From a candidate division WOR-3 bacterium (GTDB lineage: Bacteria > Hydrothermota > Tepidihabitantia > Tepidihabitantales > JBDRVQ01): 64,000 nt of DNA. The notes under the pieces were generated by a model. The model was not told the origin of the DNA. It was given only the letters and a program-made list of their open reading frames with translations, and made no database searches. Positions 2,011 through 58,187 of the stretch are shown in pieces. Where the stretch lies: positions 29,635 to 93,634 of the forward strand of contig JBDRVQ010000001.1 of assembly GCA_039801905.1 (NCBI GenBank). Direction: 5' to 3'. Each line of letters opens with the position of its first letter. Position 1 is the first letter of the stretch. The position numbers were made by a program, and so were the translations under genes.

Positions 2011-2085
2011 TGGTGGAAGGATGAGCAGAAATTGTGCCGGAGAGGAAGATTTACCGAAATGGAACTGAAAATTTAGTGTCAGAAA

Positions 2086-2114
2086 ATGGGGGGTATTTCC
2101 GTATTTATTATAGA
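2086..2114 (+). promoter_or_regulatory. promoter-like element of the copy A leader (ATGGGG-17-TATAGA), 5 nt from the sORF ATG
   Basis: Same layout as copies B and D, which have TTGGGG as the -35. The -35 is weaker here. Confidence 0.35.
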
Positions 2115-2119
2115 GGGCT

Positions 2120-2224
2120 ATGAAGAAGTTAAAAGAAATTATTAAGGTAAGTTATTGGGTTCTAATCCCAACCCTTATCTCAGAAGAGAGATTAAGGAGG
2201 TGTTATGAGATAATTAGCACTTAA
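2120..2224 (+). CDS. candidate leaderless small ORF (34 aa), MKKLKEIIKVSYWVLIPTLISEERLRRCYEIIST
   Basis: The ATG lies 5 nt after the -10-like hexamer. The paralogous copy at 33102-33200 differs by an in-frame 6-nt indel plus point changes. Confidence 0.3.
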   Translation: MKKLKEIIKVSYWVLIPTLISEERLRRCYEIIST

Positions 2225-2320
2225 TAAAAATGGCATTAAATCATAAGACCTTTATCAAACAGGAGGGGTTTATCTTTATAAAAAGGGGTGTAGCATACAG
2301 GGGATGGTATCAGGGATTTA

Positions 2321-2524
2321 ATGGAAGGGATAATAGAAGTTTTAATAAAAGGCGTAATTTTAGACTTAATCGGAGATTTAATAAAGGGTTTAATCAAGAA
2401 TTTAATAGAAGGTCTAAAAGAGGATATAAAGAGAAGGATAATCAGGAGCCTAAGCCAAGGTATAATCCAGAGCCTAATTAAAGGTTTAATCCGAAGTCTA
2501 AATGGAAGCCTAATCCTAAGAGAA
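2321..2524 (+). repeat. 12-nt phased degenerate tandem array, about 17 units (consensus A-T-H-N-R-R-R-N-Y-Y-T-A)
   Basis: Hand-phased units: atagaagtttta|ataaaaggcgta|attttagactta|atcggagattta|ataaagggttta|atcaagaattta|atagaaggtcta... I found no phase-breaking indel. Confidence 0.9.
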
Positions 2525-2676: not shown

Positions 2677-5600
2677 TCATTTCGTAATCACAAGTTTCTT
2701 TAATATCGCTTCTCTTCCTTTTCGGAAAAAAAGAAAATAGATACGGGGGGAGAGTCTTTGGGCATTGAAGAGAAAAGAGTCAGAATATTTCCCGGGCAAT
2801 TCTCTCCTTAAAAGAATATCAACCCGTCGGCCGGTAGCATCATAAAGGATGATCTCCAATCTCCCCGGCCTTTCTACCCGGTAGCTAATCTTTGCCTCCT
2901 GCCGGATAATGGTTGGTAATTCTAAATAGAGGGTTCGCTTCGCTGGTGAAAATAAAAGATCCGGAATGGTAAGGGAAGACATTGTGGTTCTCATCTCGTA
3001 AAACTCTTGGGTATTATTCCCTTTTAAGGCATAGACCTTGTCCTGGGCATAAGCCAGAGAAGCACCTTCTTTTACCCCTCTCCTTTTTCCGGTAATGGGT
3101 AAGGGAGTAAGGGAAAACCATCTCTCTCCTCTGATGTCATAAGCCCAAAATTCTGGACTATTTCCACCCTTAAAGGCATAGATAAGTTTTAACTTTTTAT
3201 CATAGGTTAATGCGCCATCTCTAACAACTTTTGCCTTCTCCGTGGGTGGCAAATCAAACAATTCCATCCATAAACGAAGACGGGGGGCATAGGCATAAAA
3301 CTTATTCGTCTTCCCTTTCAAAACATAGATATTCTGCCCATCAGTAGTGAGGGCACTTCCCCTATCAAATCGCTTCTTTCCTGGACCTTCGGGCGGAAAA
3401 GGTAAGTCTGTAAACCAAATCTCCCTCTCACAATTATAAGCATACCATTCCGTGGTTCTTCTCCCTTTCAAAAAATAGACATATCCGGTATCGCCCAATT
3501 GGAGATAGGTGAGTCCTGCCCCAGCCAAAACCTTCTTCTCACCCGGAACATCCGCTAACCTTAGCCAGACCGGTTCCTCCCTTTTTGTGTCGTAGCGCCA
3601 GAATTCTTTTGTGTTATGACCTCTAAGAAGATAGAGATACCTCCGACCATCATAAGTAATTGCCGCCCCCTTCCCTACCCGCTTTTTCGCCTCCGAATTT
3701 GGAAAACTGTCAACGAATTCCCAGGTGTCATTCCGAATAGAATATCGGTAGAAATCATTTGTATTATTCCCTTTTAAGGCGTAGATGGTGGTATCGTTAA
3801 CCGCCACCAAACATCCCCCACCCTTCACCTTTTTCTTACTGGGTCCTAAGGGAAACTCTGCTTTGGGAAACCAGAGGAAAGCGGGGGTTGATTCCGAGAG
3901 GATTAAGAAGTCGTCAATTAGCCAATAGTTTCCGTGATCACCACAATAGAGGAAGGCGATCCGAACAGTGGGCTTGCCAATTACGAAATCGGTAATTTCG
4001 TGAAGGACGTATCCGTAATCATCAGTTCCTTTATATTTCGCAATACTATGCCAACTCAAACCGTTATCCGTTGAGAGCAAAACTACTCCGGAGTCCGGAT
4101 ATCTTTCATTATCATCATAATCATTAAAGTAACTCAACCAAACGGAATTGGCAGTGGCACAGTTAATTACCGGGGAGATTAAGGTGTCATTATTCACCTC
4201 CAATATCTCATCGGAAATCATCGCTCCCCATCGCCCATTTTTTCTTCCCTTATGCCAATCGTTGGTATTCCAGACCGGAGGTGATTCACTTCCTCCCGCT
4301 CCAATGCGCCAACCAAAAGGTGGATTGTCACCATAAGGTCCCCAATCCCCATCAAAATCTTCCGCATAGAAGGGAGGGAAAACAATCTCTTTTTTTCTCA
4401 CCTTCACCCTCCGCCGGAAAGTATCGTTGCGTGGCCGCTCGTCTCCTCTCAGTTCGGTCCAGACCTTAACGGAACAGGTAACAATCCCTAAATAGTAAGG
4501 GGCAAGCCAATCGGGATTAAAGACCACTCGGGCAGTATCCCTACCCAATACGATAGAAAGTCTCTCTTCGCCTTGATATGAATAACCATCCGGTCCAGTG
4601 ATTTGGAGTTTCACCGGCACATCCCTTTGGGTCAAAAGCCCAACATTTTTCACTGTCGCCTGGATGGGATAACTACTTTCGCAATAGACCGTCTCCGGCA
4701 TATGAATGGCGATCGTTTTCAGATCATTGAGTAAGGGCTGGAAGGTGGAGATCGCCCTCCGACAATTGACCCTCCCCCAACCGTAATTGTTATTGGGATA
4801 GGGTCCACCTTGAATTGGCTGGTCCGAAGAATCAAGGAGAGCGGAATACACCGCCCGATACTCAGAAAACCCCTTATCCAGAAGCAAGGCGACCGCCCCG
4901 GCAATGTGGGGAGCAGCGGCGGATGTCCCTCTACTCACAATATAACCGCCTCCGGGAGAGGCGGAACGAATCCCAATCCCCGGGGCAACAAGGTCCGGTT
5001 TTATAAAATTCCAATCCAGTCTTCCCCAATACTCCGATTGATTCCAGGGCGGAAGATTGGGAGCCGGACCCCGACTGGAGAAACTTGCCACTGTATCGTT
5101 AATATCGGTTGCCCCAACACCAATCACAATTGGGAAGTTACCCGGTGCTAAGTCGGTCATTGGGTTAGGACCATTATTACCGATGGCAAAAACAGGAATA
5201 ATCTCAAGTTCTCTTAAATTCCGGAGGATATTCCAAAAGAGGGTGGCCGTTCTCTCCCCACCCCAAGAGTTGCTTATCACCTGGGGGGCATCTTCACCCA
5301 ATCCGGCAAACCATTGGAGACACTCCGCAATTATGGAAAACCATCCCGTTCCTAACCGGTCAAATCCCTTAGCGGCAATAAATTGGGCACCGGGTGCCAC
5401 ACCGATATCCTCGGGAAAAGGACCAAAACCATCACCACCACAGATTATCCCCATCGTGTAAGTGCCATGCCCATTATCATCATAAGGGGTTTGATGATGG
5501 GCAACGGCATCAAACCAGCCGTTGCGCTCCCGCCAGCGGTTGCCAAAAGCCGGATGATAAACATCAACTCCGGTGTCTAAATTGCCTACGACAACCCCTT

Positions 5601-6090
5601 CCCCGGTATAGCCCAATGCCCAACAAGAATCCGCTTTGATCTTTGTAATGTTCCATTCCGGATCCTCCAAGAGATCGCGCTCCGTTGATTTTGTCAATTT
5701 TGGTAATTGGATGACGAAATCTTCAACCAGATAATCCACTCCCTCCCAATCCTTTATCTTTTTTATCATCTCCGGGGTTGCCTTAAAGGCGATAAAGTTA
5801 GCAATCCAAAAGGACCGCTCATTGGTGATACCAATTTCTCTTAACTTCTTAATAATGGGTTCTTGACTTTTTTGGGCAAAGGCTTTCAAGTAATTAACCT
5901 TCTCCTCTCTACTCTTTCCCTTTAATAAAGAAAGGTCGGCTTCCTCTGTCAGATGGAGGACGATCGGAATCGTTGTGTCAGGTTTTGCCTTTTGGAGAAT
6001 GGTACCAAGGGATGGGAGAATCTCACCGCCGAAGAGAAAGGTTAAGGGAAGGATGGCAAAGATAAATTTCTTGCCTTTCTTTAACCCCAT
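2677..6090 (-). CDS. secreted subtilisin-like (S8) serine protease with six Kelch-like blades and a T9SS/FlgD-Ig-like C-terminal domain
   Basis: Signal peptide. Asp/His/Ser triad contexts are NLDTGVD, HGTYTMG and GTSAAAPHIAG. Six repeats match YxLKGxxTxEFWxYD. The C-terminus (EIILYDATGRRV...) resembles a Por-type sorting domain. Confidence 0.8.
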   Translation of the reverse strand: MGLKKGKKFIFAILPLTFLFGGEILPSLGTILQKAKPDTTIPIVLHLTEEADLSLLKGKSREEKVNYLKAFAQKSQEPIIKKLREIGITNERSFWIANFIAFKATPEMIKKIKDWEGVDYLVEDFVIQLPKLTKSTERDLLEDPEWNITKIKADSCWALGYTGEGVVVGNLDTGVDVYHPAFGNRWRERNGWFDAVAHHQTPYDDNGHGTYTMGIICGGDGFGPFPEDIGVAPGAQFIAAKGFDRLGTGWFSIIAECLQWFAGLGEDAPQVISNSWGGERTATLFWNILRNLRELEIIPVFAIGNNGPNPMTDLAPGNFPIVIGVGATDINDTVASFSSRGPAPNLPPWNQSEYWGRLDWNFIKPDLVAPGIGIRSASPGGGYIVSRGTSAAAPHIAGAVALLLDKGFSEYRAVYSALLDSSDQPIQGGPYPNNNYGWGRVNCRRAISTFQPLLNDLKTIAIHMPETVYCESSYPIQATVKNVGLLTQRDVPVKLQITGPDGYSYQGEERLSIVLGRDTARVVFNPDWLAPYYLGIVTCSVKVWTELRGDERPRNDTFRRRVKVRKKEIVFPPFYAEDFDGDWGPYGDNPPFGWRIGAGGSESPPVWNTNDWHKGRKNGRWGAMISDEILEVNNDTLISPVINCATANSVWLSYFNDYDDNERYPDSGVVLLSTDNGLSWHSIAKYKGTDDYGYVLHEITDFVIGKPTVRIAFLYCGDHGNYWLIDDFLILSESTPAFLWFPKAEFPLGPSKKKVKGGGCLVAVNDTTIYALKGNNTNDFYRYSIRNDTWEFVDSFPNSEAKKRVGKGAAITYDGRRYLYLLRGHNTKEFWRYDTKREEPVWLRLADVPGEKKVLAGAGLTYLQLGDTGYVYFLKGRRTTEWYAYNCEREIWFTDLPFPPEGPGKKRFDRGSALTTDGQNIYVLKGKTNKFYAYAPRLRLWMELFDLPPTEKAKVVRDGALTYDKKLKLIYAFKGGNSPEFWAYDIRGERWFSLTPLPITGKRRGVKEGASLAYAQDKVYALKGNNTQEFYEMRTTMSSLTIPDLLFSPAKRTLYLELPTIIRQEAKISYRVERPGRLEIILYDATGRRVDILLRRELPGKYSDSFLFNAQRLSPRIYFLFFRKGREAILKKLVITK

Positions 6091-6278: not shown

Positions 6279-9023
6279 ATGAGGAACTTATATCTCTTTC
6301 CTTTTGGGAAGGAAGGGGCAACGAAAAGGCTCCTATCGGATGCCCTATCCCTTTCGGAAAAGGGAAAAAATCGGGATTATTCTGAGATCCTGTATCTGGC
6401 ACCTACACCCCGAAAGGCAAGGGAGGCGATAAAAATTTTTATCTCCCTTTTTCCTAACTCTCCTTTTGCCTTTATCCCACCCCGGTTTTTAACGATAAAG
6501 ACCTTAGCCCAAGAGATATACTCTTCTTTTGCGGAGAAGGTATTTCTGCCCGATTCCTTAAAACCCGTCTTTCTTAAAAGTTTGATTAAAGGAAACTTCT
6601 CTCTTAGCTATTACTATCACATCGGAGAGTTGATTAAAGACTTAAAATCCGCCAATCTGATGAGAGAATGGGAAAAGACCAAAGGGTTAATCAAAAATCG
6701 TTTAGCCCCCTTTTCCCCAAAGAGGCTGAGAATGGAGGAGATATTTGCGCTAATAGAAAGATACGAGGAAGGCCTTAAAGAAAATTCCCTTGCCGATTCC
6801 GAAGATATATTGAAGGAGGCGACAATTTATTTGCAAAAAAGAAAGAAAAGGAAAGGGGTTCTGGTAATTGACGGGTTTATGGATTTGACGAAGTTGGAAG
6901 AAGATTTTTTATCCGCCTTAATCAATAACTTTGAGCATATCCTCGCCTTAGCCTATTTTGATACCCGGTTTCCCGAGATTTATTCCCTCCCTAAGGAGTT
7001 TGCCGATTTCATCTCTTCCTTAGGAGGGTTTGAGGTGATAGAAGAGAGAGGAGATGATAGTTTCTTAGAGCGGGAGAAGATGGCTTTCTTAGAATTTCCT
7101 TCCCGGGAAGAAGAGGTGGAAGGGATTGCCCAAAAGATAAAAAAGTTATTCTTGGATGGGAAATTATCACTTTCCCAGACGATCGTCACCTTTCCCGATT
7201 TAAATAGTTATGCCCCAATTGTGGAAAGGGTCTTTAAGAAGTATAAAATCCCTTTCACCCTTTATCCCCAACGTTCCCTTCTCGCCTCGCCGGTGGTGAT
7301 ACCGGTAATTAATCTATTAAGGGCGGTGGTTGATGACTATCCATTTTTGCCAACGATAACTTGCCTCACTTCTCCTTTCTTCTCTCGTTTCCATATCAAG
7401 ACCAGAAATTTTGTCTCCTATTATGCCCGGCGGGCAAAAATCATTAAAGGGGAATTTAGTTGGCGGAATTTGGTCCGGGATTTGATTAAAGAATATAGAG
7501 AGGAGAAAGGGAAGAAGTCTTCTCTTCCCGGTATCTTCCAAGTAGAAAGGGATATCAATCTCTTCCTTTCAGTGAGCGGCACCCTAAAGAGGGAAAGAGG
7601 GAAAATTACCGACTTTCTCTCCCTTCTCTCCTCCGTTCTTAAAGAGTTGGGTTGGCCCGGAGAATTAAAGGAAGAAGACTTAGAACTCTGGGAAGATAAG
7701 AAAGAGTTGGTTTCTATCTTTCAGGGTTTAGAGTCTTTCCGGGAAACCGAATGTAGTCTGGCAGAATTTTTAGAGATCTTAGAGACAATTCTCAAATATC
7801 ATCCCATTATTCCGGAGCGGGAGGAGAAAGGGGTTAGGATATTAGGATTATTGGAGACAAGGGGTTTAACCGCAAAACATATCTTCTTCGGCGGTCTCTG
7901 TGAGGGAAGTCTCCCTTCCCCTTTAAGACACGACCCATTTTTGCCCGATTGGCTTAGGGAAAAATTAAATCTTTTGCATTTAGAAAGACACCAAAAGTGG
8001 CAGAGACTTCATTTCTTCCGAATATTAAGGTCCGCCCAAGAGATTTATCTCTCCTATCCCCGTCAGGAAGGTGAAAGACTATTTCTCCCTTCTCCCTTCT
8101 TAGAAGGGGAAGCGATTTTGGCAAAAAGGGAGAGAATAATCTTTACCGAGGAGGAGAAAGAGCGCCTTTTAGGATTAGGAGAGGAGAAGGATTTTTCTTC
8201 GGAAGGGGTTGATTTCTCTACCGACCGAGAAGCGAAAAGGGTTTTGAAAAGAAGGTTTTATCCCTATGTCCAAGTGACCGAGATTGAGAAACTGAGAAGA
8301 TGTCCTTACAACTTCTATTTGGAAAATATCTTAGGATTGGTAACAGAAGAGGAGACAAAATTTGAGATTGAACCTCGGGAATGGGGAGAATTGGCGCATC
8401 AGGTTTTGGAAAGGCTCTATGCGGAAAGAAAAGAATTTATCCCCTTAGAGGAGATACCGAAAAGGGTAGAAAAGATTCTCTCCTCCCTCCTCGCCCAGAG
8501 TGGCTTTCCCCTTTTCTGGCAGGATGTGGCAAAGAAGATTTTTGAAAAGATTTTACCCAACTTCTTAGAGATGGAAAAAGAACTAAGGGAAAAAGGGTAT
8601 TATCCGGAAAGGATTGAGGAGCGGGTGAAAGGAGATCTCCTCAGAATTAATCTCTACGGCAAGATTGACCGGATTGATAAAAACCAAGATAATAAATATC
8701 TGATTCTGGATTACAAAACCGGGGGCACGGATATTTATCCCGGAGACATTGAAAAGGGGAAGCATCTCCAACTCCCCCTCTATTCCCTCCTCCTGCGGCG
8801 AAAGGGTTTAGCGGTAAGTGGATTTGCCCTCTATTCCTTTAAGGAGAAGAAGGTGAAATGGCTAGCCAAGGATGAGGTTGATTGCCAAGAAAAAGAAGAA
8901 TTGGCGCAAAAATTTGCCCAAGAAGTACTCCAAGAGGCACTCCAGGGAATTTTTCCTGCGGCCCCAGTTGATGAAGGGGTCTGTCGGTTCTGCCTTTATT
9001 CTTTTCTCTGTGCTCAGGAGTAG
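6279..9023 (+). CDS. addB: ATP-dependent helicase/nuclease subunit B (AddB-type, PD-(D/E)XK nuclease with Fe-S cysteines)
   Basis: C-terminal nuclease motif DRIDKN...LILDYKTG. Cysteines at RRCPYNFY and CRFCLYSFLC. Immediately upstream of addA. Confidence 0.75.
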   Translation: MRNLYLFPFGKEGATKRLLSDALSLSEKGKNRDYSEILYLAPTPRKAREAIKIFISLFPNSPFAFIPPRFLTIKTLAQEIYSSFAEKVFLPDSLKPVFLKSLIKGNFSLSYYYHIGELIKDLKSANLMREWEKTKGLIKNRLAPFSPKRLRMEEIFALIERYEEGLKENSLADSEDILKEATIYLQKRKKRKGVLVIDGFMDLTKLEEDFLSALINNFEHILALAYFDTRFPEIYSLPKEFADFISSLGGFEVIEERGDDSFLEREKMAFLEFPSREEEVEGIAQKIKKLFLDGKLSLSQTIVTFPDLNSYAPIVERVFKKYKIPFTLYPQRSLLASPVVIPVINLLRAVVDDYPFLPTITCLTSPFFSRFHIKTRNFVSYYARRAKIIKGEFSWRNLVRDLIKEYREEKGKKSSLPGIFQVERDINLFLSVSGTLKRERGKITDFLSLLSSVLKELGWPGELKEEDLELWEDKKELVSIFQGLESFRETECSLAEFLEILETILKYHPIIPEREEKGVRILGLLETRGLTAKHIFFGGLCEGSLPSPLRHDPFLPDWLREKLNLLHLERHQKWQRLHFFRILRSAQEIYLSYPRQEGERLFLPSPFLEGEAILAKRERIIFTEEEKERLLGLGEEKDFSSEGVDFSTDREAKRVLKRRFYPYVQVTEIEKLRRCPYNFYLENILGLVTEEETKFEIEPREWGELAHQVLERLYAERKEFIPLEEIPKRVEKILSSLLAQSGFPLFWQDVAKKIFEKILPNFLEMEKELREKGYYPERIEERVKGDLLRINLYGKIDRIDKNQDNKYLILDYKTGGTDIYPGDIEKGKHLQLPLYSLLLRRKGLAVSGFALYSFKEKKVKWLAKDEVDCQEKEELAQKFAQEVLQEALQGIFPAAPVDEGVCRFCLYSFLCAQE

Positions 9024-9025
9024 AA

Positions 9026-12000
9026 ATGGCAGAAGAACTTCTCACCACCTTAGTCCGCTCGCCCGCGGGTTCGGGTAAGACCGAACGTTTAGCCCGAAGG
9101 TACATTGCCTTATTAAAAAGGGGTGTCCCACCCGAAAGAATTTTAACCATCACCTTTACGGAAAAGGCAGCGGCGGAGATGAAAGAGCGCATCTTTCGCA
9201 TCCTAAGAAAAGAAGACCCGGATTTGGAGAGGAAGTTGAAGGAGAGTATCTTAAAGTTAAGGATCTCCACGATTGACTCTTTCTGCTTCTCTTTAATTCG
9301 CACCTTTTCCCCTTATTTAGAATTACCACCAGATTTGGAGGTCAATCCGGAAAGCGAAATCTTGTGGCTTCTCTCCTCTTATGACACCCTCATGGGCATC
9401 GCCCAAGAGAGAAATTCTCCGGATTATTCCCTCTTATCGGACTTAATCTCGGATGGTGGTTTTCGCGGTTGGCCCAACCTTCTTAAACTCTTTCAGGAAC
9501 TGTTCAAAAAACGGATCGCCCTTCTGAGGCGGACAACCGAAGAAGAACTTGATATTGATCACTATCTCTCCCAATTGACGAAAATGGGCATTGATTTACC
9601 ACTGGAACCGGAGAAAGATAAGGTGGAGTCCCTCTTCTTATTCTTAGAAAAAAATCGGCATCTCTTTCTCACCAAAAGAGGAGAAGTGCGGAAGGCAAGG
9701 AAAGGGGAAGAAATTGACTATGAGAGATTGAAAGAGTTTTATATCCTCTTGGCAAAGAGATACTACCAAGGGTATTTTGAGAAGATCCTCTCCCTCTTCC
9801 AAAACCGCTTCTTGGCGGAATATAAAGAGAGGAAACACCAGAAAGGAATTTTAGATTTTCCCGATTTGGAGTTTTTAGTCTTTGACCTTTTGACCAATTT
9901 TCCGGAATGGCAGAATATCCTTTATCTCTTTGACCAGCACACCGACCACATCTTGGTGGACGAGTTTCAGGATACCTCCTTCTTGCAGTGGGCAATCATT
10001 GACAAATTGACTGAGGAGTGGCGAAGCGGTTGGGGAGCGAAGCGGGAGAGAGAAATTGAACCGACCCTATTTTTGGTGGGGGATGAGAAGCAATCAATTT
10101 ATTTCTTCCGCAATGCCCAATCCGAAATCTTTGCCCGAGCCAAAAAGAAATTGGCAGTTTATTTAGGGAATAAGTTCCGCGAGGAGACGGTTAAGGATAA
10201 TTACCGAAGTCTTAATGCCATCATTGAATTTACCAACTACTTCTTCTCCCGACTTTTTATCGGTGGGGAAGGGAAACCATTCTGGCAGACCCCTTACTCC
10301 GAATTCATCGGGCGGCGGCAAAATGCCGCACTGGGAAAGGTGGAGATAATTTTAGACAAAAAGGAAGGGAAGATGCCAGAAAGGAGGAAACTGGAAGCAG
10401 AACTTATCGCCCAGCGGATTAAAACCCTTTTGGGAGAGAAAATTGTCTTTGATCGGGAGGAGAAACCAATCCCCGCCGGTTATGAGCATTTTGCCATTCT
10501 CCTAAGGCGCCGAACCCATCTTCCCCTTTACGAGAAAGCCTTAAAGGATGCCGCTATACCTTATCTGGTGGTGAAAGGGGTTGGCTTCTATCAAGAAATA
10601 GAAGTGCAACTCCTTTGCGCCTTAGTTAACTTCTTAGTAGAACCAACTGATAATTTTAGCCTCTACCTCATCTTAAAGTTTCTCTTCTCTCTATCCGAGA
10701 AGGAGATTCTCCTCCTCCAGAGTCGGGCGGGAGAATGCCTCTACCAAAAGTTGGAAAAGGGGAAGAAAGAGATTGCAGAAGAACTCGCCTCCTATCGGGA
10801 AAAGATTTTTAAACTTCCCATTTCCCTTCTCTTAGAAGAGATTCTCAATCGGCGGGGCGTCTGGCGACTCTTCCCTTCGGACCAACAGTATTCCAATATA
10901 AAGAAGTTCATTCGCATCTGTGAGGAATTAGAATGGGAAGGAAAATCTCCTTGGGAGATAAGAGAATATCTGTCAAGGGCGAAGAAGAATACCGATGAAC
11001 CAAAGGCGGATGTCTCTTGGGAAGGGATCAAGGCGGTGCGGATTATGACCGTGCATGCGGCGAAGGGGTTAGAATTTCCCATTGTCTTCTTCGCTGGTTT
11101 GGATGAAAATTTACTCTCCCATCAGGGCAAGGAAGACTTTGTCATAGAAGAAGGGGAGGAAGGGGTTTCTCTCCTCTACCTTCCGGAAAAGAACCTCCAA
11201 AAAGAAGAGCCCCTCTTTCAAGAAAGGGAAGAGAAGCAATTGGAGGAGGAGAAGAGGATATTTTATGTCGCCTGCACCCGGGCTCGGGATTATCTTGTCC
11301 TTACCGGAATCATTCCCGATAAAGTGTCCCGCTCCCGCCTCCAATGGCTCCAAAATATCTTCTCCCTAGAATGGCGGGAAGGGAAAATTTCCTCGCCGGT
11401 GAAATTGCCGGGGTTAGAATTTCTTTCCGGAGAAGAGGTCTTATCATTAGCGAAGAAAAAAGAGGAAGGAGAAAAGGTAAAAGAAGAGGTGAAGACCTCT
11501 CCCCTATTCCTTTCGGAAATCACAGAAAGGGAAAAGATCATTAAGCCGGTCACCAAAGAGACGAATGAAGATTTAAGGCGCCACGGCGAAGGGGCAATCC
11601 TTTTTGGCAAGGTGATGCATAAGATATTAGAGAAGATTGCCCGAGGGGATCTCGCTTGGCAGAAAGAAGCCGTCTCCCGGATGGGCGAGCGGCTTTTCCT
11701 TTTAGCCGGTGTCCCCCAAAAAGAATTAAAAATCTGGGTGCGAGGAATTTGGCAACAGTTGTCCGTCTTAGAAAAGTCAAACTTGAAAGAGATTATTCTG
11801 CCGCAAGAGGGAAGTTATGCGGAATTACCCTTCCTTTTGGCGGATGGGGATTTTATCTATCAGGGAAGGATTGACCGGGTGATTGTCCGGAAAGAAGAAG
11901 TGGCAATCTATGACTACAAAACCTATCGCGTTAAGGGGGAAGAGATTCCCTTCCTCCTTGACTTTTACGAAAGGGAGCAGATGGCAATTTACCGGAAAGC

Positions 12001-12112
12001 CGCTTCGCTTTTCTTCCCTGGGAAGAGAGTGCGTGCCTATTTAATCTTCACCGCTTTGGGTAAAATCTTTCCCCTTTTTGCTAATTCTCGGGAAATAAGT
12101 CTCACTCCATAA
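9026..12112 (+). CDS. addA: ATP-dependent helicase/nuclease subunit A (UvrD/Rep-family helicase with C-terminal nuclease)
   Basis: Walker A SPAGSGKTERL. Also TFTEKAAAEMKERI, VDEFQDTS and a C-terminal GRIDRV...IYDYKT motif. Confidence 0.85.
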   Translation: MAEELLTTLVRSPAGSGKTERLARRYIALLKRGVPPERILTITFTEKAAAEMKERIFRILRKEDPDLERKLKESILKLRISTIDSFCFSLIRTFSPYLELPPDLEVNPESEILWLLSSYDTLMGIAQERNSPDYSLLSDLISDGGFRGWPNLLKLFQELFKKRIALLRRTTEEELDIDHYLSQLTKMGIDLPLEPEKDKVESLFLFLEKNRHLFLTKRGEVRKARKGEEIDYERLKEFYILLAKRYYQGYFEKILSLFQNRFLAEYKERKHQKGILDFPDLEFLVFDLLTNFPEWQNILYLFDQHTDHILVDEFQDTSFLQWAIIDKLTEEWRSGWGAKREREIEPTLFLVGDEKQSIYFFRNAQSEIFARAKKKLAVYLGNKFREETVKDNYRSLNAIIEFTNYFFSRLFIGGEGKPFWQTPYSEFIGRRQNAALGKVEIILDKKEGKMPERRKLEAELIAQRIKTLLGEKIVFDREEKPIPAGYEHFAILLRRRTHLPLYEKALKDAAIPYLVVKGVGFYQEIEVQLLCALVNFLVEPTDNFSLYLILKFLFSLSEKEILLLQSRAGECLYQKLEKGKKEIAEELASYREKIFKLPISLLLEEILNRRGVWRLFPSDQQYSNIKKFIRICEELEWEGKSPWEIREYLSRAKKNTDEPKADVSWEGIKAVRIMTVHAAKGLEFPIVFFAGLDENLLSHQGKEDFVIEEGEEGVSLLYLPEKNLQKEEPLFQEREEKQLEEEKRIFYVACTRARDYLVLTGIIPDKVSRSRLQWLQNIFSLEWREGKISSPVKLPGLEFLSGEEVLSLAKKKEEGEKVKEEVKTSPLFLSEITEREKIIKPVTKETNEDLRRHGEGAILFGKVMHKILEKIARGDLAWQKEAVSRMGERLFLLAGVPQKELKIWVRGIWQQLSVLEKSNLKEIILPQEGSYAELPFLLADGDFIYQGRIDRVIVRKEEVAIYDYKTYRVKGEEIPFLLDFYEREQMAIYRKAASLFFPGKRVRAYLIFTALGKIFPLFANSREISLTP

Positions 12113-18864: not shown

Positions 18865-18937
18865 TGGGTCGTGCAGGATTCGAACCTGCGGCCACCGGAT
18901 TAAAAATCCGGTGCTCTGCCACCTGAGCTAACGACCC
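18865..18937 (-). tRNA. tRNA-Lys (anticodon UUU)
   Basis: The reverse complement GGGTCGTTAGCTCAGGTGGCAGAGCACCGGATTTTTAATCCGGTGGCCGCAGGTTCGAATCCTGCACGACCCA folds as a 73-nt cloverleaf. Acceptor stem 7 bp, anticodon loop TTTTTAA, T-loop TTCGAAT. No CCA is encoded. Confidence 0.93.
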
Positions 18938-19104: not shown

Positions 19105-19311
19105 CTAATCATTCTCAATTAGGCTTCCATTTTCCCTTCGGATTAAACCCATAGTTAGACATAGGATTAAACTCTTTATTATCCCTTCTATTAAACTCTG
19201 AATTAAAGTTCCAATTATACCCTCTTTTAGAGTATTTATTAAATCCTCAATTAGATCTCCAATTACGTGTAAAATTATCCCTTATTTTAGACCCTATATT
19301 ATGCCTTCCAT
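19105..19311 (-). repeat. 12-nt phased degenerate tandem array, 17 units
   Basis: Minus strand: atggaaggcata|atatagggtcta|aaataagggata|attttacacgta|attggagatcta|... |attgagaatgat|tag. Confidence 0.9.
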
Positions 19312-19411
19312 TAAATCCCCGATACCATCCCCTGTATGCTACACCCTTTTTACAAAAATAAATCCCTCCTTTCTAAGGATAGTTTTTCTTATCAGTTAGT
19401 TAATTTATTAT

Positions 19412-19439
19412 ATTATAAAGCAATTTTGGAAGATGTCAA
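19412..19439 (-). promoter_or_regulatory. near-consensus sigma70 promoter (TTGACA-16-TATAAT) reading into box + array C
   Basis: Minus strand: attgaca tcttccaaaattgctt tataat ataataaatt. Confidence 0.6.
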
Positions 19440-32731: not shown

Positions 32732-33067
32732 TTTTCACCTCTTCACTAAAATTAAGTTTAGGGGAAAAAAAGGGAAAGTCAACATTGGTATGGAAGCAAT
32801 AAGAGAGAAGAGCCACTTTATGGTGGTAGAGATTTTTGACCAAAAGAATTGAATTTCTCGTTGATGATAATACCTTGCCAAAATAAACCTCTCGCCACCT
32901 TCTATTCAAGAAGAAGAGTTACAATCTAAGGAGTGAGCGGAAGATAAAAAGATGAAATAGAACTTTCCCACTTCGGTGGTCACACCCTTCTGAAAAGTGT
33001 CTCTTGAATTAAATAAGTTATTATAAATCAAAGGCTTATAAAAAAGGGGGAAATTTAGTGTCAGAAA

Positions 33068-33096
33068 TTGGGGGGTATTTCCGTATTTATTATAGA
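33068..33096 (+). promoter_or_regulatory. promoter-like element of the copy B leader (TTGGGG-17-TATAGA), 5 nt from the sORF ATG
   Basis: ttgggg ggtatttccgtatttat tataga gggct ATG. Confidence 0.4.
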
Positions 33097-33101
33097 GGGC
33101 T

Positions 33102-33200
33102 ATGAAGAAGTTAAAAGAAATTATTAAGGTAAGTGATTGGGTTCTAATCCCAACCCTTGAAGAGAGATTGAGGAGGTATTATCGGGTAATTAGCACTTAA
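33102..33200 (+). CDS. candidate leaderless small ORF (32 aa), MKKLKEIIKVSDWVLIPTLEERLRRYYRVIST
   Basis: Paralogue of 2120-2224. Both share the same start context and the same stop (AGC ACT TAA). Confidence 0.3.
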   Translation: MKKLKEIIKVSDWVLIPTLEERLRRYYRVIST

Positions 33201-33297
33201 TAAAAATGGCATTAAATAATAAAAAACTTTATCAAACAGGAGGGGTTTATCTTTATAAAAAGGGGTGTAGCATACAGGGGATGGTATCGGGGATTTA

Positions 33298-33516
33298 ATG
33301 GAAGGCATAATCTAAGGCATAATTTTAGGCTTAATCGGAGTTTTAATAGAGGGTTTAATTGAGAATCTAATAAATACTCTAAAAGAAGTTATAACCGGCG
33401 GTATAATCAGAAGCCTAATTCAGAGTTTAATAGAAAGGATAATAAAGAGTTTAATCATGTGTCTAATTAAGGGTTTAATCCGAAGGGAAAATAGAAACCT
33501 AATTGAGAATGATTAG
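33298..33516 (+). repeat. 12-nt phased degenerate tandem array, 18 units
   Basis: atggaaggcata|atctaaggcata|attttaggctta|atcggagtttta|atagagggttta|attgagaatcta|...|attgagaatgat|tag. Confidence 0.9.
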
Positions 33517-33745
33517 TGGAGAAGAATAATCTTTTCTCTTTGAATAGAGCCCTCGCTTTCCATCCGCTCCCAATAAATGGGTAAAACTTTCCCCGGATGC
33601 GCATCGTGTGCCAATGAGGGCAAAATCTGATTTCCTTGCTGGGTGGATACCGGGAAACTATCAATAATAACACCAGAAGGATTTAAGCGGGCACCATAGA
33701 TATCAGATCACAAGATAATTTATGCCATCTTTCCCGGATTTTATG

Positions 33746-56541: not shown

Positions 56542-56589
56542 CCTTGGTTTTATAATAAAAAGGACTCTTAAACCCTACTTTTCCCAATC

Positions 56590-56712
56590 AAATAAGTTAT
56601 TAAAAATCAAAGACTTATAAAAAAGGGAAAGATTTGGTGTCCAATTTTTGGGGGTATTTCCGTATTTATTATAGAGGGGTATTGGGTTCTAATCCCAACC
56701 CCGAAAAGAGAG
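56590..56712 (+). repeat. Dispersed composite element, copy D, leader module (promoter + extended hairpin)
   Basis: Positions 56590-56680 are about 85% identical to 33011-33100. The hairpin GGGGTATTGGG-TTCTAAT-CCCAACCCC lies at 56677-56703. Confidence 0.85.
56648..56675 (+). promoter_or_regulatory. promoter-like element of the copy D leader (TTGGGG-16-TATAGA)
   Basis: ttgggg gtatttccgtatttat tataga, followed by the hairpin and then the AAGAGAGG Shine-Dalgarno sequence of ORF 56719. Confidence 0.4.
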
Positions 56713-56718
56713 GTGCGT

Positions 56719-57087
56719 ATGAAAGATGCTTTAAGGCGAATAGAGAAGTATATATCTAAGTTAGAACCAGAGATTATAAGAAGAGATTTTGCCCAATTGA
56801 AAGAGAAGATGCTACAACAGATTACCACCTACTTTATAGAGATCTTTGAGGTTGAGACAAAGGCAAAGGCGATTTTAAGCGAATACGACCTACCGGTTAG
56901 TCTTATCCCCTTTTATCTATGCTATGCCCGGGAATTATATAGCCTTTCTAAGAGATATGCGGGATTTCCTCTCTTCCGGGAGATAAGGATTAGGGAGGGA
57001 AAATGGCGAAATAGAACTCTCCAACCGGAAATTTTAAGAAGGATAAGATTTGATATATTTGGCATAACCTTACCGGAGGAGATATGA
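56719..57087 (+). CDS. hypothetical helical protein (122 aa), paralogue 1 of a tandem pair
   Basis: AAGAGAGG lies 5 nt upstream of the ATG at 56719; the ORF-track start at 56713 is a GTG. It shares 13 of 34 ungapped identities with the next ORF (VETKAKAILSEYDLPVSLIPFYLCYARELYSLSK vs VEEKVKEILEERGISVIYHFAYYAFGRKVYKLLK). Confidence 0.55.
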   Translation: MKDALRRIEKYISKLEPEIIRRDFAQLKEKMLQQITTYFIEIFEVETKAKAILSEYDLPVSLIPFYLCYARELYSLSKRYAGFPLFREIRIREGKWRNRTLQPEILRRIRFDIFGITLPEEI

Positions 57088-57419
57088 GGATTGAGATAAA
57101 GAAGAAGAAGTCACTGGAGAGATTGGCGAAGATGGCAAGGAGATATGCAGTTTATTATCCAGATGCTACAAGGAGTTACCTGAAAGGGATAGTTGACTAT
57201 GTCCTATTTGTGGAAGAGAAGGTGAAAGAGATTTTGGAGGAGCGGGGAATTTCGGTTATTTATCACTTTGCCTATTATGCCTTCGGTAGAAAGGTCTATA
57301 AACTCCTAAAAGAGAAGAAGGATTCCCAAATCCCTTCTTTAATTGAGGAGTGGGTGAAAGATAAATGTCTTTCCCGAGATGTTTTATCAGAGATTAAGGA
57401 GGCTTTATCGGAGAAGTAG
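57084..57419 (+). CDS. hypothetical helical protein (111 aa), paralogue 2 of a tandem pair
   Basis: ATGA overlap with the upstream ORF. GGAGGAG lies upstream. I recognise no family. Confidence 0.55.
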   Translation: MRIEIKKKKSLERLAKMARRYAVYYPDATRSYLKGIVDYVLFVEEKVKEILEERGISVIYHFAYYAFGRKVYKLLKEKKDSQIPSLIEEWVKDKCLSRDVLSEIKEALSEK

Positions 57420-57463
57420 GTCTTAAATAAGACTTAAGTTAAGTGATAAAAATTTTATGATGT

Positions 57464-57715
57464 AGGAGGGTTTTGTCTTTAGAAAAAGGGGTGTAGCATA
57501 CAGGGGATGGTATCGGGGTTCTAATGGAAAGTCTAAGTAACGGTCTAAACTTAGGTCTAATTGGAGTTCTAAATAAGGGTCTAAAAGAAGGTCTAAAAGT
57601 AGGGGTAATAAAAAGAGTAATTGGAAATCTAATTAAGAGTCTAATTGAAAATTTAATCCGAAGTCTAATTATAGTTTTAACCGAAAGCCCAATTGAAAGT
57701 CTAACCTCAAGTCTA
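57464..57715 (+). repeat. Dispersed composite element, copy D, box + 12-nt phased array (16 units from 57524)
   Basis: AGGAGGGTTTTGTCTTTAGAAAAAGGGGTGTAGCATACAGGGGATGGTATCGGGGTTCTAATGGAAAG, followed by agtaacggtcta|aacttaggtcta|attggagttcta|aataagggtcta|... (unit consensus aaGTCTAAtt). Confidence 0.9.
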
Positions 57716-57755
57716 AATATCGGCTCGGTGAAAATAGGGGAGGGCAATAACACTA

Positions 57756-57784
57756 TTGACAAGAATACTTTTTTTGTGTATATT
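57756..57784 (+). promoter_or_regulatory. sigma70 promoter (TTGACA-17-TATATT) upstream of the HU gene
   Basis: ttgaca agaatactttttttgtg tatatt ttagga ATG. It gives a 5' region of about 125 nt ahead of the HU ATG. Confidence 0.55.
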
Positions 57785-57914: not shown

Positions 57915-58187
57915 ATGAAGAAAGCCGAACTTATTGAGAAAATCGCCAAGGATGCAGGCATCTCCAAGAAACAGGCGGGGCTCGCTCTCCAATCCTTTAT
58001 GGATGCGGTGAAGATGGTGATGAAGAAAGATGACGAACTGACCCTTCCCAAATTTGGCCGGTTCTATGTGAAGAAGACAAAAGCCCGAATTGGCCGGAAT
58101 CCAAAAACCGGAGAGGAGATAAAAATTCCAGCCAGGAAGAGACCGGCCTTCCGCGCGGGGAAGGAATTAAAACTCGCTGCTAAATAA
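57915..58187 (+). CDS. HU/IHF-family DNA-binding protein
   Basis: MKKAELIEKIAKDAGISKKQA...GRNPKTGEEIKIPARKRPAFRAGKELK. A GGGGGTG Shine-Dalgarno sequence lies 7 nt upstream. Confidence 0.9.
   Translation: MKKAELIEKIAKDAGISKKQAGLALQSFMDAVKMVMKKDDELTLPKFGRFYVKKTKARIGRNPKTGEEIKIPARKRPAFRAGKELKLAAK

What the first reader, a model, noticed from the sequence alone, without database searches (positions are those of the whole stretch)
2068..2524. Four-copy dispersed element: a conserved ~48-nt box followed by a strictly 12-nt-phased TAAT array (copy A and family description)
The same architecture occurs four times in 64 kb: A 2261-2524 (+), C 19105-19370 (-), B 33241-33516 (+) and D 57464-57715 (+). 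Each copy has AGGAGGG, about 16 nt, then AAAAGGGGTGTAGCATACAGGGGATGGTATCGGGGATTTAATGGAAGG, then 16-18 contiguous 12-nt units. The unit consensus is A-T-H-N-R-R-R-N-Y-Y-T-A (for example atcggagattta|ataaagggttta|atcaagaattta|atagaaggtcta). Phasing the units by hand, I found no indel that breaks the 12-nt register in any copy. This holds even though the unit sequences are strongly diverged between copies. Total array length is nearly constant at about 200 nt. It is not a CRISPR (no spacers, and the unit is too short), and no transposase, integrase or terminal inverted repeats are nearby. All copies sit in the largest intergenic gaps of the window and have promoter-like sequences upstream. I do not recognise it as any described RNA or repeat family. 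Three candidate roles seem possible. It could be an RNA scaffold or sponge with about 16 evenly spaced sites. It could be a DNA array for a filament-forming binding protein, by analogy with the 12-bp tubC iterons bound by TubR. It could also be a 4-residue-repeat micro-protein gene family.
Basis: seen in the sequence. Interest (0 to 1): 0.85.

Follow-up and report, generated by a model that had tools for sequence, protein, structure and literature searches.

The report
Capsid-like gene cassette with 12-bp array
The four "box plus 12-nt array" elements are real but are not genes for repeat peptides; they are the non-coding tail of a small multi-copy cassette whose complete copy encodes two proteins distantly related to archaeal filamentous-virus coat proteins, which wrap exactly 12 bp of DNA per dimer, so the array is probably a phased landing track for them.

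Summary
Four copies of an invariant box, each followed by 17-18 contiguous 12-nt units, are the only period-12 arrays in the window.

The array is not a conserved coding sequence.
- Most copies lack the ATG or carry in-frame stops, yet they keep the register.
- dN/dS in the Leu-Ile frame is 1.2, against 0.1-0.2 for neighbouring genes.
- The "Leu codon" is xTA in 97% of cases, against 32% genome-wide. This means TAA is constrained as nucleotides.

A and B are internal-deletion derivatives. C is a promoter-driven orphan.

ORF1 and ORF2 are paralogs. Their family is remotely homologous to the major capsid proteins of archaeal filamentous viruses (hhalign 98.3%, E 1.8e-14). Dimers of those proteins each cover 12 bp of A-form DNA.

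The same cassette with an array in the same register recurs in three more divergent lineages, each with its own AT-rich motif.

Best reading (inferred): the array is a phased track that binds or nucleates the capsid-like heterodimer. Whether it acts as DNA or RNA, and its cellular role, remain open.

The parts
56586..56718 (+). Copy D: cassette leader, the 5' region of ORF1. It includes the hairpin GGGTT-CTAATCCC-AACCC at 56684-56701.
   Evidence: It is shared with the regions upstream of A and B (blastn, 83-100% identity). It also recurs in L005 and L018.
56719..57087 (+). Copy D: ORF1, 122 aa, basic (pI 9.4). It is a paralog of ORF2 and a homolog of SIRV2-type capsid proteins.
   Evidence: hhalign against the ORF2 family gives 92.9%, E 3.8e-7. 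dN/dS is 0.11 against the JBDRVU ortholog.
57084..57419 (+). Copy D: ORF2, 111 aa, basic (pI 9.4), with a Lys/Arg-rich N-terminus. It is a remote homolog of the major capsid proteins of filamentous archaeal viruses.
   Evidence: hhalign gives 98.3%, E 1.8e-14 against SIRV2 ORF134 plus Sulf_coat_C members. dN/dS is 0.20.
57464..57470 (+). Copy D: invariant AGGAGGG.
   Evidence: Seen in the sequence and across copies.
57484..57520 (+). Copy D: box, made of G-tracts plus the invariant core 57491-57514. Its 3' half already has the form of two array units.
57521..57724 (+). Copy D: array of 17 x 12-nt units with phased TAA. It ends 32 nt before the -35 of the HU gene promoter (57756-57784).
2068..2260 (+). 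Copy A: leader remnant (hairpin at 2157-2174) joined to the last ~30 nt of ORF2 and the spacer. ORF1 and most of ORF2 are deleted.
   Evidence: blastn aligns A 2068-2121 and 2153-2174 to D 56629-56701, and A 2187-2513 to D 57389-57704.
2261..2317 (+). Copy A: AGGAGGGG (2261-2268) plus the box (core 2288-2311).
2318..2521 (+). Copy A: array of 17 units. An incidental open frame (2321-2575, 84 aa) runs through it.
33007..33237 (+). Copy B: leader remnant plus the ORF2 3' remnant. It has the same internal deletion as A.
33238..33294 (+). Copy B: AGGAGGGG plus the box (core 33265-33288).
33295..33510 (+). Copy B: array of 18 units. There is a TAA at codon 6 of the Leu-Ile frame.
19412..19439 (-). 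Copy C: perfect sigma-70-type promoter TTGACA-16-TATAAT reading into the element. It is homologous to the promoters of orphans L007 and L008.
19315..19370 (-). Copy C: AGGAGGG (19370-19364) plus the box (core 19344-19321). It is 1 nt shorter than the other copies between AGGAGGG and the box.
19111..19314 (-). Copy C: array of 17 units. There is a TAG at codon 6 and a TAA at codon 10 of the Leu-Ile frame.

Best explanation
The four elements are the cis-acting, non-coding part of a small multi-copy cassette found in WOR-3 bacteria.

The complete cassette (copy D, about 56586-57724) has these parts in order:
- a leader;
- two overlapping paralogous genes, ORF1 (122 aa) and ORF2 (111 aa);
- AGGAGGG;
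- an invariant G-tract box;
- about 17-19 contiguous 12-bp units, each carrying a phased AT-rich motif with a TpA step (TAAT in this lineage).

ORF1 and ORF2 are remote homologs of the alpha-helical major capsid proteins of archaeal filamentous viruses (realm Adnaviria, SIRV2 fold). In solved virions, homo- or heterodimers of those proteins each wrap 12 bp of A-form DNA.

Inferred mechanism: an ORF1/ORF2 heterodimer binds one 12-bp unit. The box and its two invariant proto-units nucleate binding. The phased array then positions a cooperative helical protein-DNA filament of about 17-20 dimers, roughly one to two turns of a virion-like helix.

One intact gene pair would serve the orphan arrays (A, B, C and a fifth copy on another contig) in trans.

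Shown: the anatomy, the non-coding nature of the array, the cassette structure, its conservation across lineages, and the homology.

Inferred: the binding itself, that the target is DNA rather than RNA, and the cellular role (local chromatin or protection, regulation of the abutting promoter, or packaging).
For: 1. The array is not coding.
- In the Leu-Ile frame, 120 of 124 Leu codons are xTA, against 32% in the window's genes.
- B, C, L008, L012, L013, L014, L018 and L019 carry in-frame stops. L005, L006, L008, L012 and L014 lack the ATG. The 12-nt register is unbroken in all of them.
- dN/dS for D against its ortholog L006 is 1.21 in that frame. It is 0.11 for ORF1, 0.20 for ORF2 and 0.10 for HU. 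There are no differences at unit positions 3-4.
- Only 2 related 'proteins' were found among 5.8e9.

2. The cassette is real.
- A and B align to D on both sides of a 677-bp deletion that removes ORF1 and ORF2.
- ORF1+ORF2+box+array recur at other loci and in other genomes: L006, L011, L012 and L013.
- They also recur in divergent lineages: L018 (ORF2 49% identical), L020 (42%) and L019 (38%).
- The array register relative to the ACAGGGG anchor is identical in all of these. The phased motif is lineage-specific: TAAT, YTAA, GATAT or CTATT.

3. Homology.
- ORF1 is a paralog of ORF2.
- A profile built only from bacterial sequences retrieves P0015 and P0018 at E 1e-4 to 1e-3 in 1.84e9 proteins. Both pass Pfam's Sulf_coat_C gathering cut-off, at 36.9 and 31.8 bits against 25.2.
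- The P0018 cluster includes an Ignisphaera (archaeal) protein.
- With profile A3, which includes P0014, P0015 and P0018, seven of the nine best PDB hits are capsid proteins of SIRV2, AFV1 and another filamentous archaeal virus (6wq0); best E 2e-4.
- hhalign of the bacterial-only family against SIRV2 ORF134 plus Sulf_coat_C members gives 98.3%, E 1.8e-14 over 83 columns.

4. The period matches. SIRV2, AFV1 and SFV1 virions have 12 bp of A-form DNA per capsid-protein dimer (PMC5517147; PMC6105669).

5. Both proteins are basic. ORF2 has a Lys/Arg-rich N-terminus.

6. The RNA is not structured. Folding z-scores are +0.6 to +1.0 and there is no Rfam match even at E 1.
Against: - No binding experiment exists. 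The link between the array and the proteins rests on adjacency, co-conservation and the 12-bp coincidence.
- The window proteins themselves are below Pfam thresholds (17.6 against 25.2 bits). A bacterial-only profile hits AFV1 ORF132 only at E 0.078.
- The AlphaFold model (pLDDT 70) gave no significant structural match in PDB or BFVD. The best TM-score was 0.50, to AFV1 ORF140, at E 5.6.
- Genuine virions coat DNA without known sequence specificity. The SIRV2 genome has no period-12 array.
- One divergent WOR-3 lineage (L025) has ORF1 and ORF2 but only about 2-3 phased units.
- Orphans C, L007 and L008 carry perfect promoters aimed through the array. This suggests the transcript matters.
- The invariant AGGAGGG is unexplained by a DNA-binding model.
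Confidence: 0.5

Rival explanations
1. RNA-level element. Box plus array is transcribed, either as the 3' part of the ORF1-ORF2 mRNA or from the orphans' own strong promoters. It would act as an unstructured RNA scaffold or sponge with about 17-20 evenly spaced UAA(U) sites. The bound protein could be the ORF1/ORF2 pair or another RNA-binding protein.
For: - C, L007 and L008 have perfect TTGACA-16-TATAAT promoters at a conserved distance upstream of GGAGGG.
- No terminator separates ORF2 from the array.
- Box and array keep a fixed orientation relative to the genes in all lineages.
- Most arrays are purine-rich on the sense strand.
- The leader hairpin tolerates a U-A to U-G change, which suits RNA.
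Against: - There is no predicted structure (z +0.6 to +1.0) and no Rfam match.
- Purine richness is not conserved: L008 and L019 are pyrimidine-rich.
- The homologous capsid proteins are known to bind double-stranded A-form DNA, not single-stranded RNA (PMC5517147, PMC6105669).
- A, B and D have no recognisable promoter of their own.
Confidence: 0.2
2. Micro-protein gene family. The array encodes small tetrapeptide-repeat proteins, (L-I-x-x)n here, and the box is a conserved 5' UTR. Broken copies would be pseudogenes.
For: - The frame is open from an ATG in A (84 aa), D (137 aa), L009, L010 and L011. It is open from a GTG in L020 (96 aa, (G-D-I-x)n).
- The second codon is ATH, that is Ile, with a free third position and rarely ATG.
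- The 5-codon mini-frame in the box ends in TAATG, overlapping the ATG.
Against: - About 10 of 15 distinct copies lack a start or have in-frame stops yet keep the register and the box. This includes copies next to intact ORF1/ORF2.
- dN/dS is 1.21.
- The third position of codon 1 is fixed (97% xTA against 32% in the genome).
- The frame is open almost automatically, because the motif excludes stops at 3 of the 4 codons.
- The repeat would be hydrophobic and basic here, acidic in L020 and Pro-rich in L019. In L019 the open frame is shifted by +1.
- D's ORF runs across the HU promoter into the HU gene.
- Only 2 relatives were found in 5.8e9 proteins.
Confidence: 0.08
3. Chromosomal centromere-like or nucleoid-organising sites that work like parC/ParR or tubC/TubR. 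The arrays would be bound by a filament-forming adaptor and used for segregation or domain organisation.
For: - The arrays are tandem direct iterons next to the genes of small basic proteins.
- The 12-bp period equals that of tubC, a fact from general knowledge that was not tested here.
- Several copies cluster within about 55 kb.
Against: - No ParM, ParA or TubZ-type NTPase, and no RHH or wHTH protein, lies in or beside any cassette (Pfam of neighbours).
- The cassette sits at different loci in different genomes.
- ORF1 and ORF2 match no partition family.
Confidence: 0.1
4. Functionless satellite. The array would be a slippage-generated repeat hitch-hiking on a duplicating cassette.
For: - Unit number varies by whole units.
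- The variable unit positions diverge at about the same rate as the flanks: 73-75% identity against 70-85%.
Against: - TAA phasing stays at 94-99% over 175 units while the other positions drift.
- The register relative to the box is conserved across lineages whose ORF2 is only 38-49% identical.
- The box is invariant over 24-26 nt in more than 12 copies from different species.
Confidence: 0.04

Closest known systems
Nucleocapsids of archaeal filamentous viruses (realm Adnaviria: Rudiviridae such as SIRV2; Lipothrixviridae such as AFV1 and SFV1)
   Same: - The proteins are small and alpha-helical, with profile-level homology.
- Two adjacent paralogous genes are present, as with the heterodimeric coat proteins of AFV1 and SFV1.
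- The structural repeat of 12 bp per dimer equals the array period (PMC5517147, PMC6105669).
   Different: - This is a bacterial chromosome (WOR-3) with housekeeping flanks.
- The cassette is only ~1.2 kb and has no other viral genes.
- No relatives were found in IMG/VR.
- There is a sequence-phased array plus an invariant box, and SIRV2 has no counterpart to these.
- Orphan arrays exist without genes.
- Adnaviria are stated to have no connection to bacterial viruses (PMC10848233).
Plasmid and phage centromeres made of contiguous iterons with an adjacent adaptor gene (parC/ParR, tubC/TubR)
   Same: It has contiguous direct repeats of about 11-12 bp next to the gene or genes of a small DNA-binding protein expected to form a helical filament. 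This is a likeness in how it works.
   Different: - The protein family is unrelated.
- There is no motor NTPase.
- The element is chromosomal, multi-copy and dispersed.
- The array lies downstream of the genes.
- Only 3-4 of the 12 positions are conserved.
Multi-site protein-sponge sRNAs (CsrB/RsmZ type)
   Same: Many evenly distributed short motifs lie in one transcript-sized unit. Some copies have strong promoters.
   Different: - The motif is TAA(T), not GGA.
- There are no hairpins.
- The phasing is strictly 12 nt.
- There is no Rfam match.
- The element is physically coupled to capsid-like genes.
Nucleosome-positioning sequences (periodic flexible TA/AA steps)
   Same: A TpA-containing AT-rich motif recurs at the structural repeat of the wrapping protein. 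This is an inference.
   Different: The period is 12 bp rather than about 10 bp. The array is prokaryotic, and no histone is involved.

Membership tests
SIRV2-fold major capsid proteins of Adnaviria (Pfam PF12193 Sulf_coat_C / PF21660 MCP_C) | The sequence matches the family model above Pfam's gathering score. | tested here: not met
   ORF2 scores 17.6 bits against PF12193 (cut-off 25.2) and 17.1 bits against PF21660 (cut-off 27). ORF1 has no hit. The distant family members P0015 (36.9 bits) and P0018 (31.8 bits) do pass.
SIRV2-fold major capsid proteins of Adnaviria | Remote homology is detectable by profile methods. | tested here: met
   hhalign of A4 (bacterial only) against A5 (SIRV2 ORF134 plus P0015, P0018 and P0014) gives 98.3%, E 1.8e-14. 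With profile A3, seven of the nine best PDB hits are SIRV2, AFV1 and 6wq0 coat proteins, best E 2e-4. The bacterial-only profile pulled P0015 and P0018 at about E 1e-4 to 1e-3 in 1.84e9 proteins.
SIRV2-fold major capsid proteins of Adnaviria | The fold has N-terminal DNA-wrapping helices plus a C-terminal four-helix bundle. | tested here: inconclusive
SIRV2-fold major capsid proteins of Adnaviria | The dimer (homo- or hetero-) wraps 12 bp of A-form dsDNA. | not testable with these tools
   Two adjacent paralogs exist and the adjacent array has a 12-bp period. Both are consistent with the feature. Binding and DNA conformation need experiments.
Adnaviria virus genome | A linear dsDNA viral genome carrying the other conserved virion and replication genes. 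| tested here: not met
   The cassettes are flanked by cmk, recA, HU, tRNA-Lys, glycosyltransferases and similar genes. There are no relatives in IMG/VR or in phage records.
Type II/III partition centromere plus adaptor (parC/ParR, tubC/TubR) | The adaptor is an RHH (ParR) or winged-HTH (TubR) protein, and a ParM/TubZ motor gene lies in the same operon. | tested here: not met
   No such Pfam families occur in ORF1, ORF2 or the neighbouring genes.
Type II/III partition centromere plus adaptor | Contiguous direct iterons lie adjacent to the adaptor gene. | tested here: met
   17-19 contiguous 12-bp units lie directly downstream of ORF2.
Protein-coding tetrapeptide-repeat gene | A conserved start, an uninterrupted ORF in homologs, and dN/dS well below 1. 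| tested here: not met
   Starts are missing or stops are present in about 10 of 15 copies. dN/dS is 1.21. Codon position 3 is fixed.
CRISPR array | Repeats of 23-50 nt separated by unique spacers of similar length. | tested here: not met
   The units are contiguous and 12 nt long, with only 3-4 conserved bases and no spacers.
Described structured RNA family (Rfam 15) | A match to a covariance model, or a stable conserved fold. | tested here: not met
   There is no match at gathering score or at E<=1. The predicted fold is less stable than shuffled sequences.

The most novel reading that the evidence does not exclude
Thermophile-associated WOR-3 bacteria carry a cellular, chromosomally encoded relative of the Adnaviria nucleocapsid. 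It would be a heterodimeric capsid-like protein that assembles a virion-like, possibly A-form, DNA filament at genetically programmed sites. A G-tract box nucleates it and a 12-bp-phased array sets the register. This would be the first sequence-specific assembly signal for this protein fold and the first link between the archaea-only realm Adnaviria and bacteria. It could be either the ancestral cellular function of the capsid protein or a domestication of it.
Probability: 0.3. Interest if true: 0.92.

Novelty: new variant of a known kind. Interest (0 to 1): 0.8.

Why it matters
The alpha-helical capsid protein of archaeal filamentous viruses is regarded as unique to the realm Adnaviria. That realm is described as having no connection to bacterial viruses (PMC10848233). 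How these proteins start to assemble on DNA and drive it into A-form is also unknown.

A bacterial chromosomal pair of homologs sits next to an array whose period equals the 12-bp footprint of a capsid dimer. This gives a defined, short and testable substrate: two small proteins plus about 230 bp of DNA. With it one could study nucleation, sequence preference and the B-to-A transition.

It also bears on whether this capsid fold arose from, or was recruited as, a cellular DNA-coating protein.

Practically, it shows that the 84-137-aa 'hypothetical proteins' annotated over these arrays in public MAGs are probably not genes.

Tried and rejected
- **The other forward frame (the 'F-N' frame, 2230-2481, 83 aa).** It is open only in A. 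A 1-nt indel in C, a 1-nt insertion in B and early stops in D, L006, L007 and L008 break it.
- **Translation from the AGGAGGG.** No ATG, GTG or TTG lies at Shine-Dalgarno distance; only ATC, ATT or GTC do. I did not accept this.
- **TAG or TAA read-through or an altered genetic code.** Ordinary genes in the window end in TGA, TAA and TAG (22, 13 and 7) and long ORFs are intact.
- **G-quadruplex in the box.** The fourth G-tract is absent in L008 and L014, and the third is broken in L014. I kept only the remark that G-tracts recur in all lineages.
- **A second, box-like repeat in the leader (terminal direct repeats).** The alignment score of 16-21 lies within the shuffled range (mean 15, maximum 25).
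- **Structured ncRNA.** Rejected.
- **A period-12 signal in a genuine rudivirus (SIRV2).** None was found.
- **Wider distribution.** The exact 20-mer of the box occurs in one other species representative only and in no JGI metagenome contig. ORF2 relatives are absent from IMG/VR, from JGI metagenome contigs and from phage records by tblastn.
- **Structural confirmation of the capsid fold.** Three fold searches gave nothing significant.
- **Hot-spring origin of the MAGs.** I could not verify it from the one WOR-3 paper checked.
Full report
**1. The observation**

The 24-nt core GTGTAGCATACAGGGGATGGTATC is identical in all four, at 2288, 33265 and 57491 on the + strand and 19344 on the - strand. 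AGGAGGG precedes it by a fixed distance, one base shorter in C. Seventeen or eighteen contiguous 12-nt units follow.

The arrays are far beyond chance. A score counting TAA at ten successive 12-nt steps reaches 10/10 only at these four places, while 50 shuffles of the window never exceed 5. Period-12 information is 8.8-10.0 bits there, against a median of 2.0 and a next-best value of 5.1. Periods 10, 11 and 13 show nothing.

Over 175 units from ten arrays, only unit positions 2-5 carry much information: T 94%, A 98%, A 99% and T 70%.

Only C has a convincing upstream promoter. D is not an isolated intergenic element.

**2. Is the array a gene?**

Read in the frame [NTA][ATH][NRR][RNY], the array spells (L-I-x-x)n. 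This frame is open from an ATG in A (84 aa) and D (137 aa). Several results argue against a conserved coding function.

- B has a TAA at codon 6. C has a TAG at codon 6 and a TAA at codon 10.
- In a second species (WOR-3 JZ-2 bin 152, loci L005-L008) the box is identical. L005 and L006 lack the ATG, and L008 has two in-frame TAAs. The register runs on in all three.
- Further copies (L012, L013, L014) have in-frame stops or no ATG.
- The first codon of each unit ends in A in 98% of units. Of 124 Leu codons, 120 are CTA or TTA, although these make up 32% of Leu codons in the window's genes (CTA alone 5%). This constraint acts on the nucleotides TAA, not on the amino acid.
- Between copy D and its positional ortholog L006, dN/dS in this frame is 1.21. 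It is 0.11 for ORF1, 0.20 for ORF2 and 0.10 for the HU gene. None of the 55 differences falls on unit positions 3-4.
- The frame stays open almost automatically, because three of its four codon patterns cannot be stop codons.
- D's '137-aa ORF' runs through the consensus promoter of the HU gene and into that gene.
- A search of 5.8 billion proteins found only two relatives, both gene calls over the same element in sister MAGs.

Homologs do not have uninterrupted ORFs, and dN/dS is not below 1.

**3.

Upstream of D lie two small overlapping genes, ORF1 (56719-57087) and ORF2 (57084-57419). A ~130-nt leader precedes them.

blastn shows that the regions upstream of A and B consist of that same leader joined to the last ~30 nt of ORF2. 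The 677 bp carrying ORF1 and ORF2 are missing. A and B are therefore internal-deletion derivatives of a D-type cassette. C retains only AGGAGGG, box and array, behind a perfect TTGACA-16-TATAAT promoter. Homologous promoter-driven orphans occur in the other species (L007, L008).

Full cassettes occur at other chromosomal sites in related MAGs (L012, L013). A truncated one lies on another contig of this same genome (L017). This genome therefore has one intact gene pair and at least five arrays.

**4. Conservation beyond the species**

ORF2 belongs to a very small family: 6 relatives in 5.8e9 proteins and 12 cluster representatives in 1.84e9. I fetched the contigs of the more distant members.

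- L018 (ORF2 49% identical) has the leader hairpin, ORF1, ORF2, AGGAGGGG, a variant box and 18 units phased on YTAA. It has in-frame stops and no ATG.
- L020 (42%) has ORF1, ORF2, a variant box and 18 very regular units phased on GATAT.
- L019 (38%) has about 9 units phased on CTATT, with an in-frame TAA.
- In all four lineages the units stand in the same register relative to the shared ACAGGGG of the box.
- The motif itself, the open frame and the hypothetical peptide differ. The peptide would be hydrophobic and basic here, acidic (GDIx)n in L020 and Pro-rich in L019, and the open frame in L019 is shifted by +1.
- What is conserved is a 12-nt period with an AT-rich, TpA-containing motif at a fixed phase next to the two genes.
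- One further WOR-3 lineage (L025, 33%) has both genes but only two or three phased units. The coupling is therefore frequent but not universal.

**5. What ORF1 and ORF2 are**

ORF1 aligns over its whole length with the ORF2 family (hhalign 92.9%, E 3.8e-7), so the two are paralogs. Both are basic (pI 9.4), and ORF2 has a Lys/Arg-rich N-terminus.

Alone, ORF2 gives only sub-threshold Pfam hits, but both are to coat proteins of filamentous archaeal viruses: Sulf_coat_C and MCP_C, E 0.004-0.006.

A profile of bacterial sequences alone retrieved P0015 and P0018 from 1.84e9 proteins at E 1.4e-4 and 9.6e-4. Both pass Pfam's own cut-off for Sulf_coat_C. The P0018 cluster contains a protein from the archaeon Ignisphaera.

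The family profile A3, which includes those members, was searched against all PDB sequences. Seven of the nine best hits are coat proteins of filamentous archaeal viruses: SIRV2 (3j9x and 3f2e), AFV1 ORF132 and ORF140, and 6wq0. The best E-value is 2e-4. With bacterial sequences only, AFV1 ORF132 remains the top hit, but at E 0.078.

A profile-profile comparison of the bacterial family with SIRV2 ORF134 plus the Sulf_coat_C members gives 98.3% probability and E 1.8e-14 over 83 columns.

The structural test was inconclusive. The model is all-helical (pLDDT 70). No fold search gave a significant match, although AFV1 ORF140 had the highest TM-score, 0.50.

I conclude that remote homology to the SIRV2-type capsid protein is well supported by sequence profiles. 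It is not confirmed by structure.

**6. Mechanism**

In the cryo-EM structures of SIRV2, AFV1 and SFV1, the asymmetric unit is one capsid-protein dimer plus 12 bp of A-form DNA. In AFV1 and SFV1 the dimer is a heterodimer of two paralogs (PMC5517147; PMC6105669).

The cassette offers two adjacent paralogs and, directly downstream, DNA whose only conserved feature is a short motif every 12 bp. The best-supported inference is that an ORF1/ORF2 heterodimer occupies one unit. On this view the invariant box, whose 3' half already has the form of two units, starts the assembly. The array then sets the register of a cooperative filament of about 17-20 dimers.

A TpA step recurs at the structural repeat. 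From general knowledge of DNA mechanics, this would favour a repeated local deformation, much as positioning sequences do for nucleosomes. The G-tracts of the box are of the kind that most readily adopts A-like geometry. Both points are inference.

The lineage-specific motifs suggest co-evolution with the proteins.

The following steps are not shown: binding, DNA versus RNA as the target, A-form, and the cellular role. The strong promoters of the orphans and the invariant AGGAGGG are not explained by a pure dsDNA model. I therefore keep an RNA-level track as the main rival at 0.2. The RNA itself is predicted to be unstructured and matches no Rfam family.

**7. Comparison with known systems, and novelty**

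It works like an iteron centromere with an adjacent adaptor gene (parC/ParR, tubC/TubR). It is not a member of those families: there is no RHH or winged-helix protein and no motor.

Its proteins are related to Adnaviria capsid proteins, but it is not a virus. The flanks are housekeeping genes, no other viral genes are present, and there are no relatives in IMG/VR or phage records. A genuine rudivirus genome has no such array.

[quoted passage not shown] I found no paper describing bacterial homologs or a phased array.

I class the element as a new variant of a known kind: a phased binding array with its adjacent protein genes. The protein family is unexpected and so is the host domain.

**8. 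Verdict**

- Observation: confirmed.
The DNA-array idea is favoured and now has candidate proteins. The micro-protein idea is disfavoured. The RNA idea remains open.
- Confidence is about 0.85 that the array is non-coding and belongs to the ORF1/ORF2 cassette.
- Confidence is about 0.5 in the specific mechanism.
- Interest: 0.8.

Noticed in passing
window 57756-57784 and 57915-58187; also 19118-19091 (-), 33503-33530, L018 ~1653-1685, L008 ~1062-1090: Arrays tend to end at or just before an outward-facing sigma-70-like promoter. D ends 32 nt before a TTGACA-17-TATATT promoter of the HU gene. The last units of B and C overlap TTGAGA-16-[AG]ATAAT. The arrays in L018 and L008 run into TTGACT. A filament on the array could control these promoters.
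   Followed up: partly
window 56684-56701, 2157-2174, ~33140-33157; L018 594-611: A conserved leader hairpin, GGGTT-CTAATCCC-AACCC, lies upstream of ORF1. Its loop contains the array motif CTAAT. L018 has AGCCC on the 3' arm, which keeps pairing as U-G. It may be an operator or a 5'-UTR element for autoregulation.
   Followed up: no
window 33511-33600 vs 19110-19020 (-): B and C share about 85 nt downstream of the array, including a weak AU-rich hairpin followed by a T-run. A and B share about 200 nt upstream. The copies are mosaics, which suggests duplication or recombination between cassettes. B and C are inverted relative to each other, about 14 kb apart.
   Followed up: partly
window 18865-18937 (-): tRNA-Lys(UUU) lies about 170 nt downstream of array C on the same strand. 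It has its own weaker promoter-like site (TTGACT-16-TAAGAT at 18973-18946).
   Followed up: no
window 56719-57087 vs L006: ORF1 is 92% identical at the nucleotide level between two species whose HU gene is 85% identical and whose IF-2B-like gene is 70% identical. ORF2 is 78% identical. ORF1 is either unusually constrained or has been homogenised by gene conversion between cassettes.
   Followed up: partly
window 2300-2323 and the equivalent positions in all copies of this lineage: A conserved 5-codon mini-frame, ATG GTA TCN GGG NTC TAA, lies inside the box. In A, B, C, D, L010 and L013 its stop overlaps an ATG as TAATG, the classic termination-reinitiation arrangement. In the JBDRVU copies the ATG is absent.
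   Followed up: partly
window 2120-2224 and 33088-33186: A 32-34-aa ORF (MKKLKEIIKVS...) spans a ~32-nt insertion in the A and B leaders. The two copies differ by an in-frame 6-nt indel. It is probably spurious, but this was not tested.
   Followed up: no
window 2677-6090 (-) and 6279-12112 (+): The neighbours of copy A are a 1137-aa S8 peptidase with a beta-propeller region and an AddAB-type helicase-nuclease pair. Neither appears related to the element.
   Followed up: no
window ~54859: This is the next-best period-12 signal in the window (5.1 bits). It lies inside a gene and is probably a coding repeat.
   Followed up: no
L012 1-2461 (GCA_965649285.1): In one relative the full cassette sits next to an N6-methyltransferase gene and an nSTAND-type NTPase gene, which looks like a defence-island neighbourhood.
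   Followed up: no
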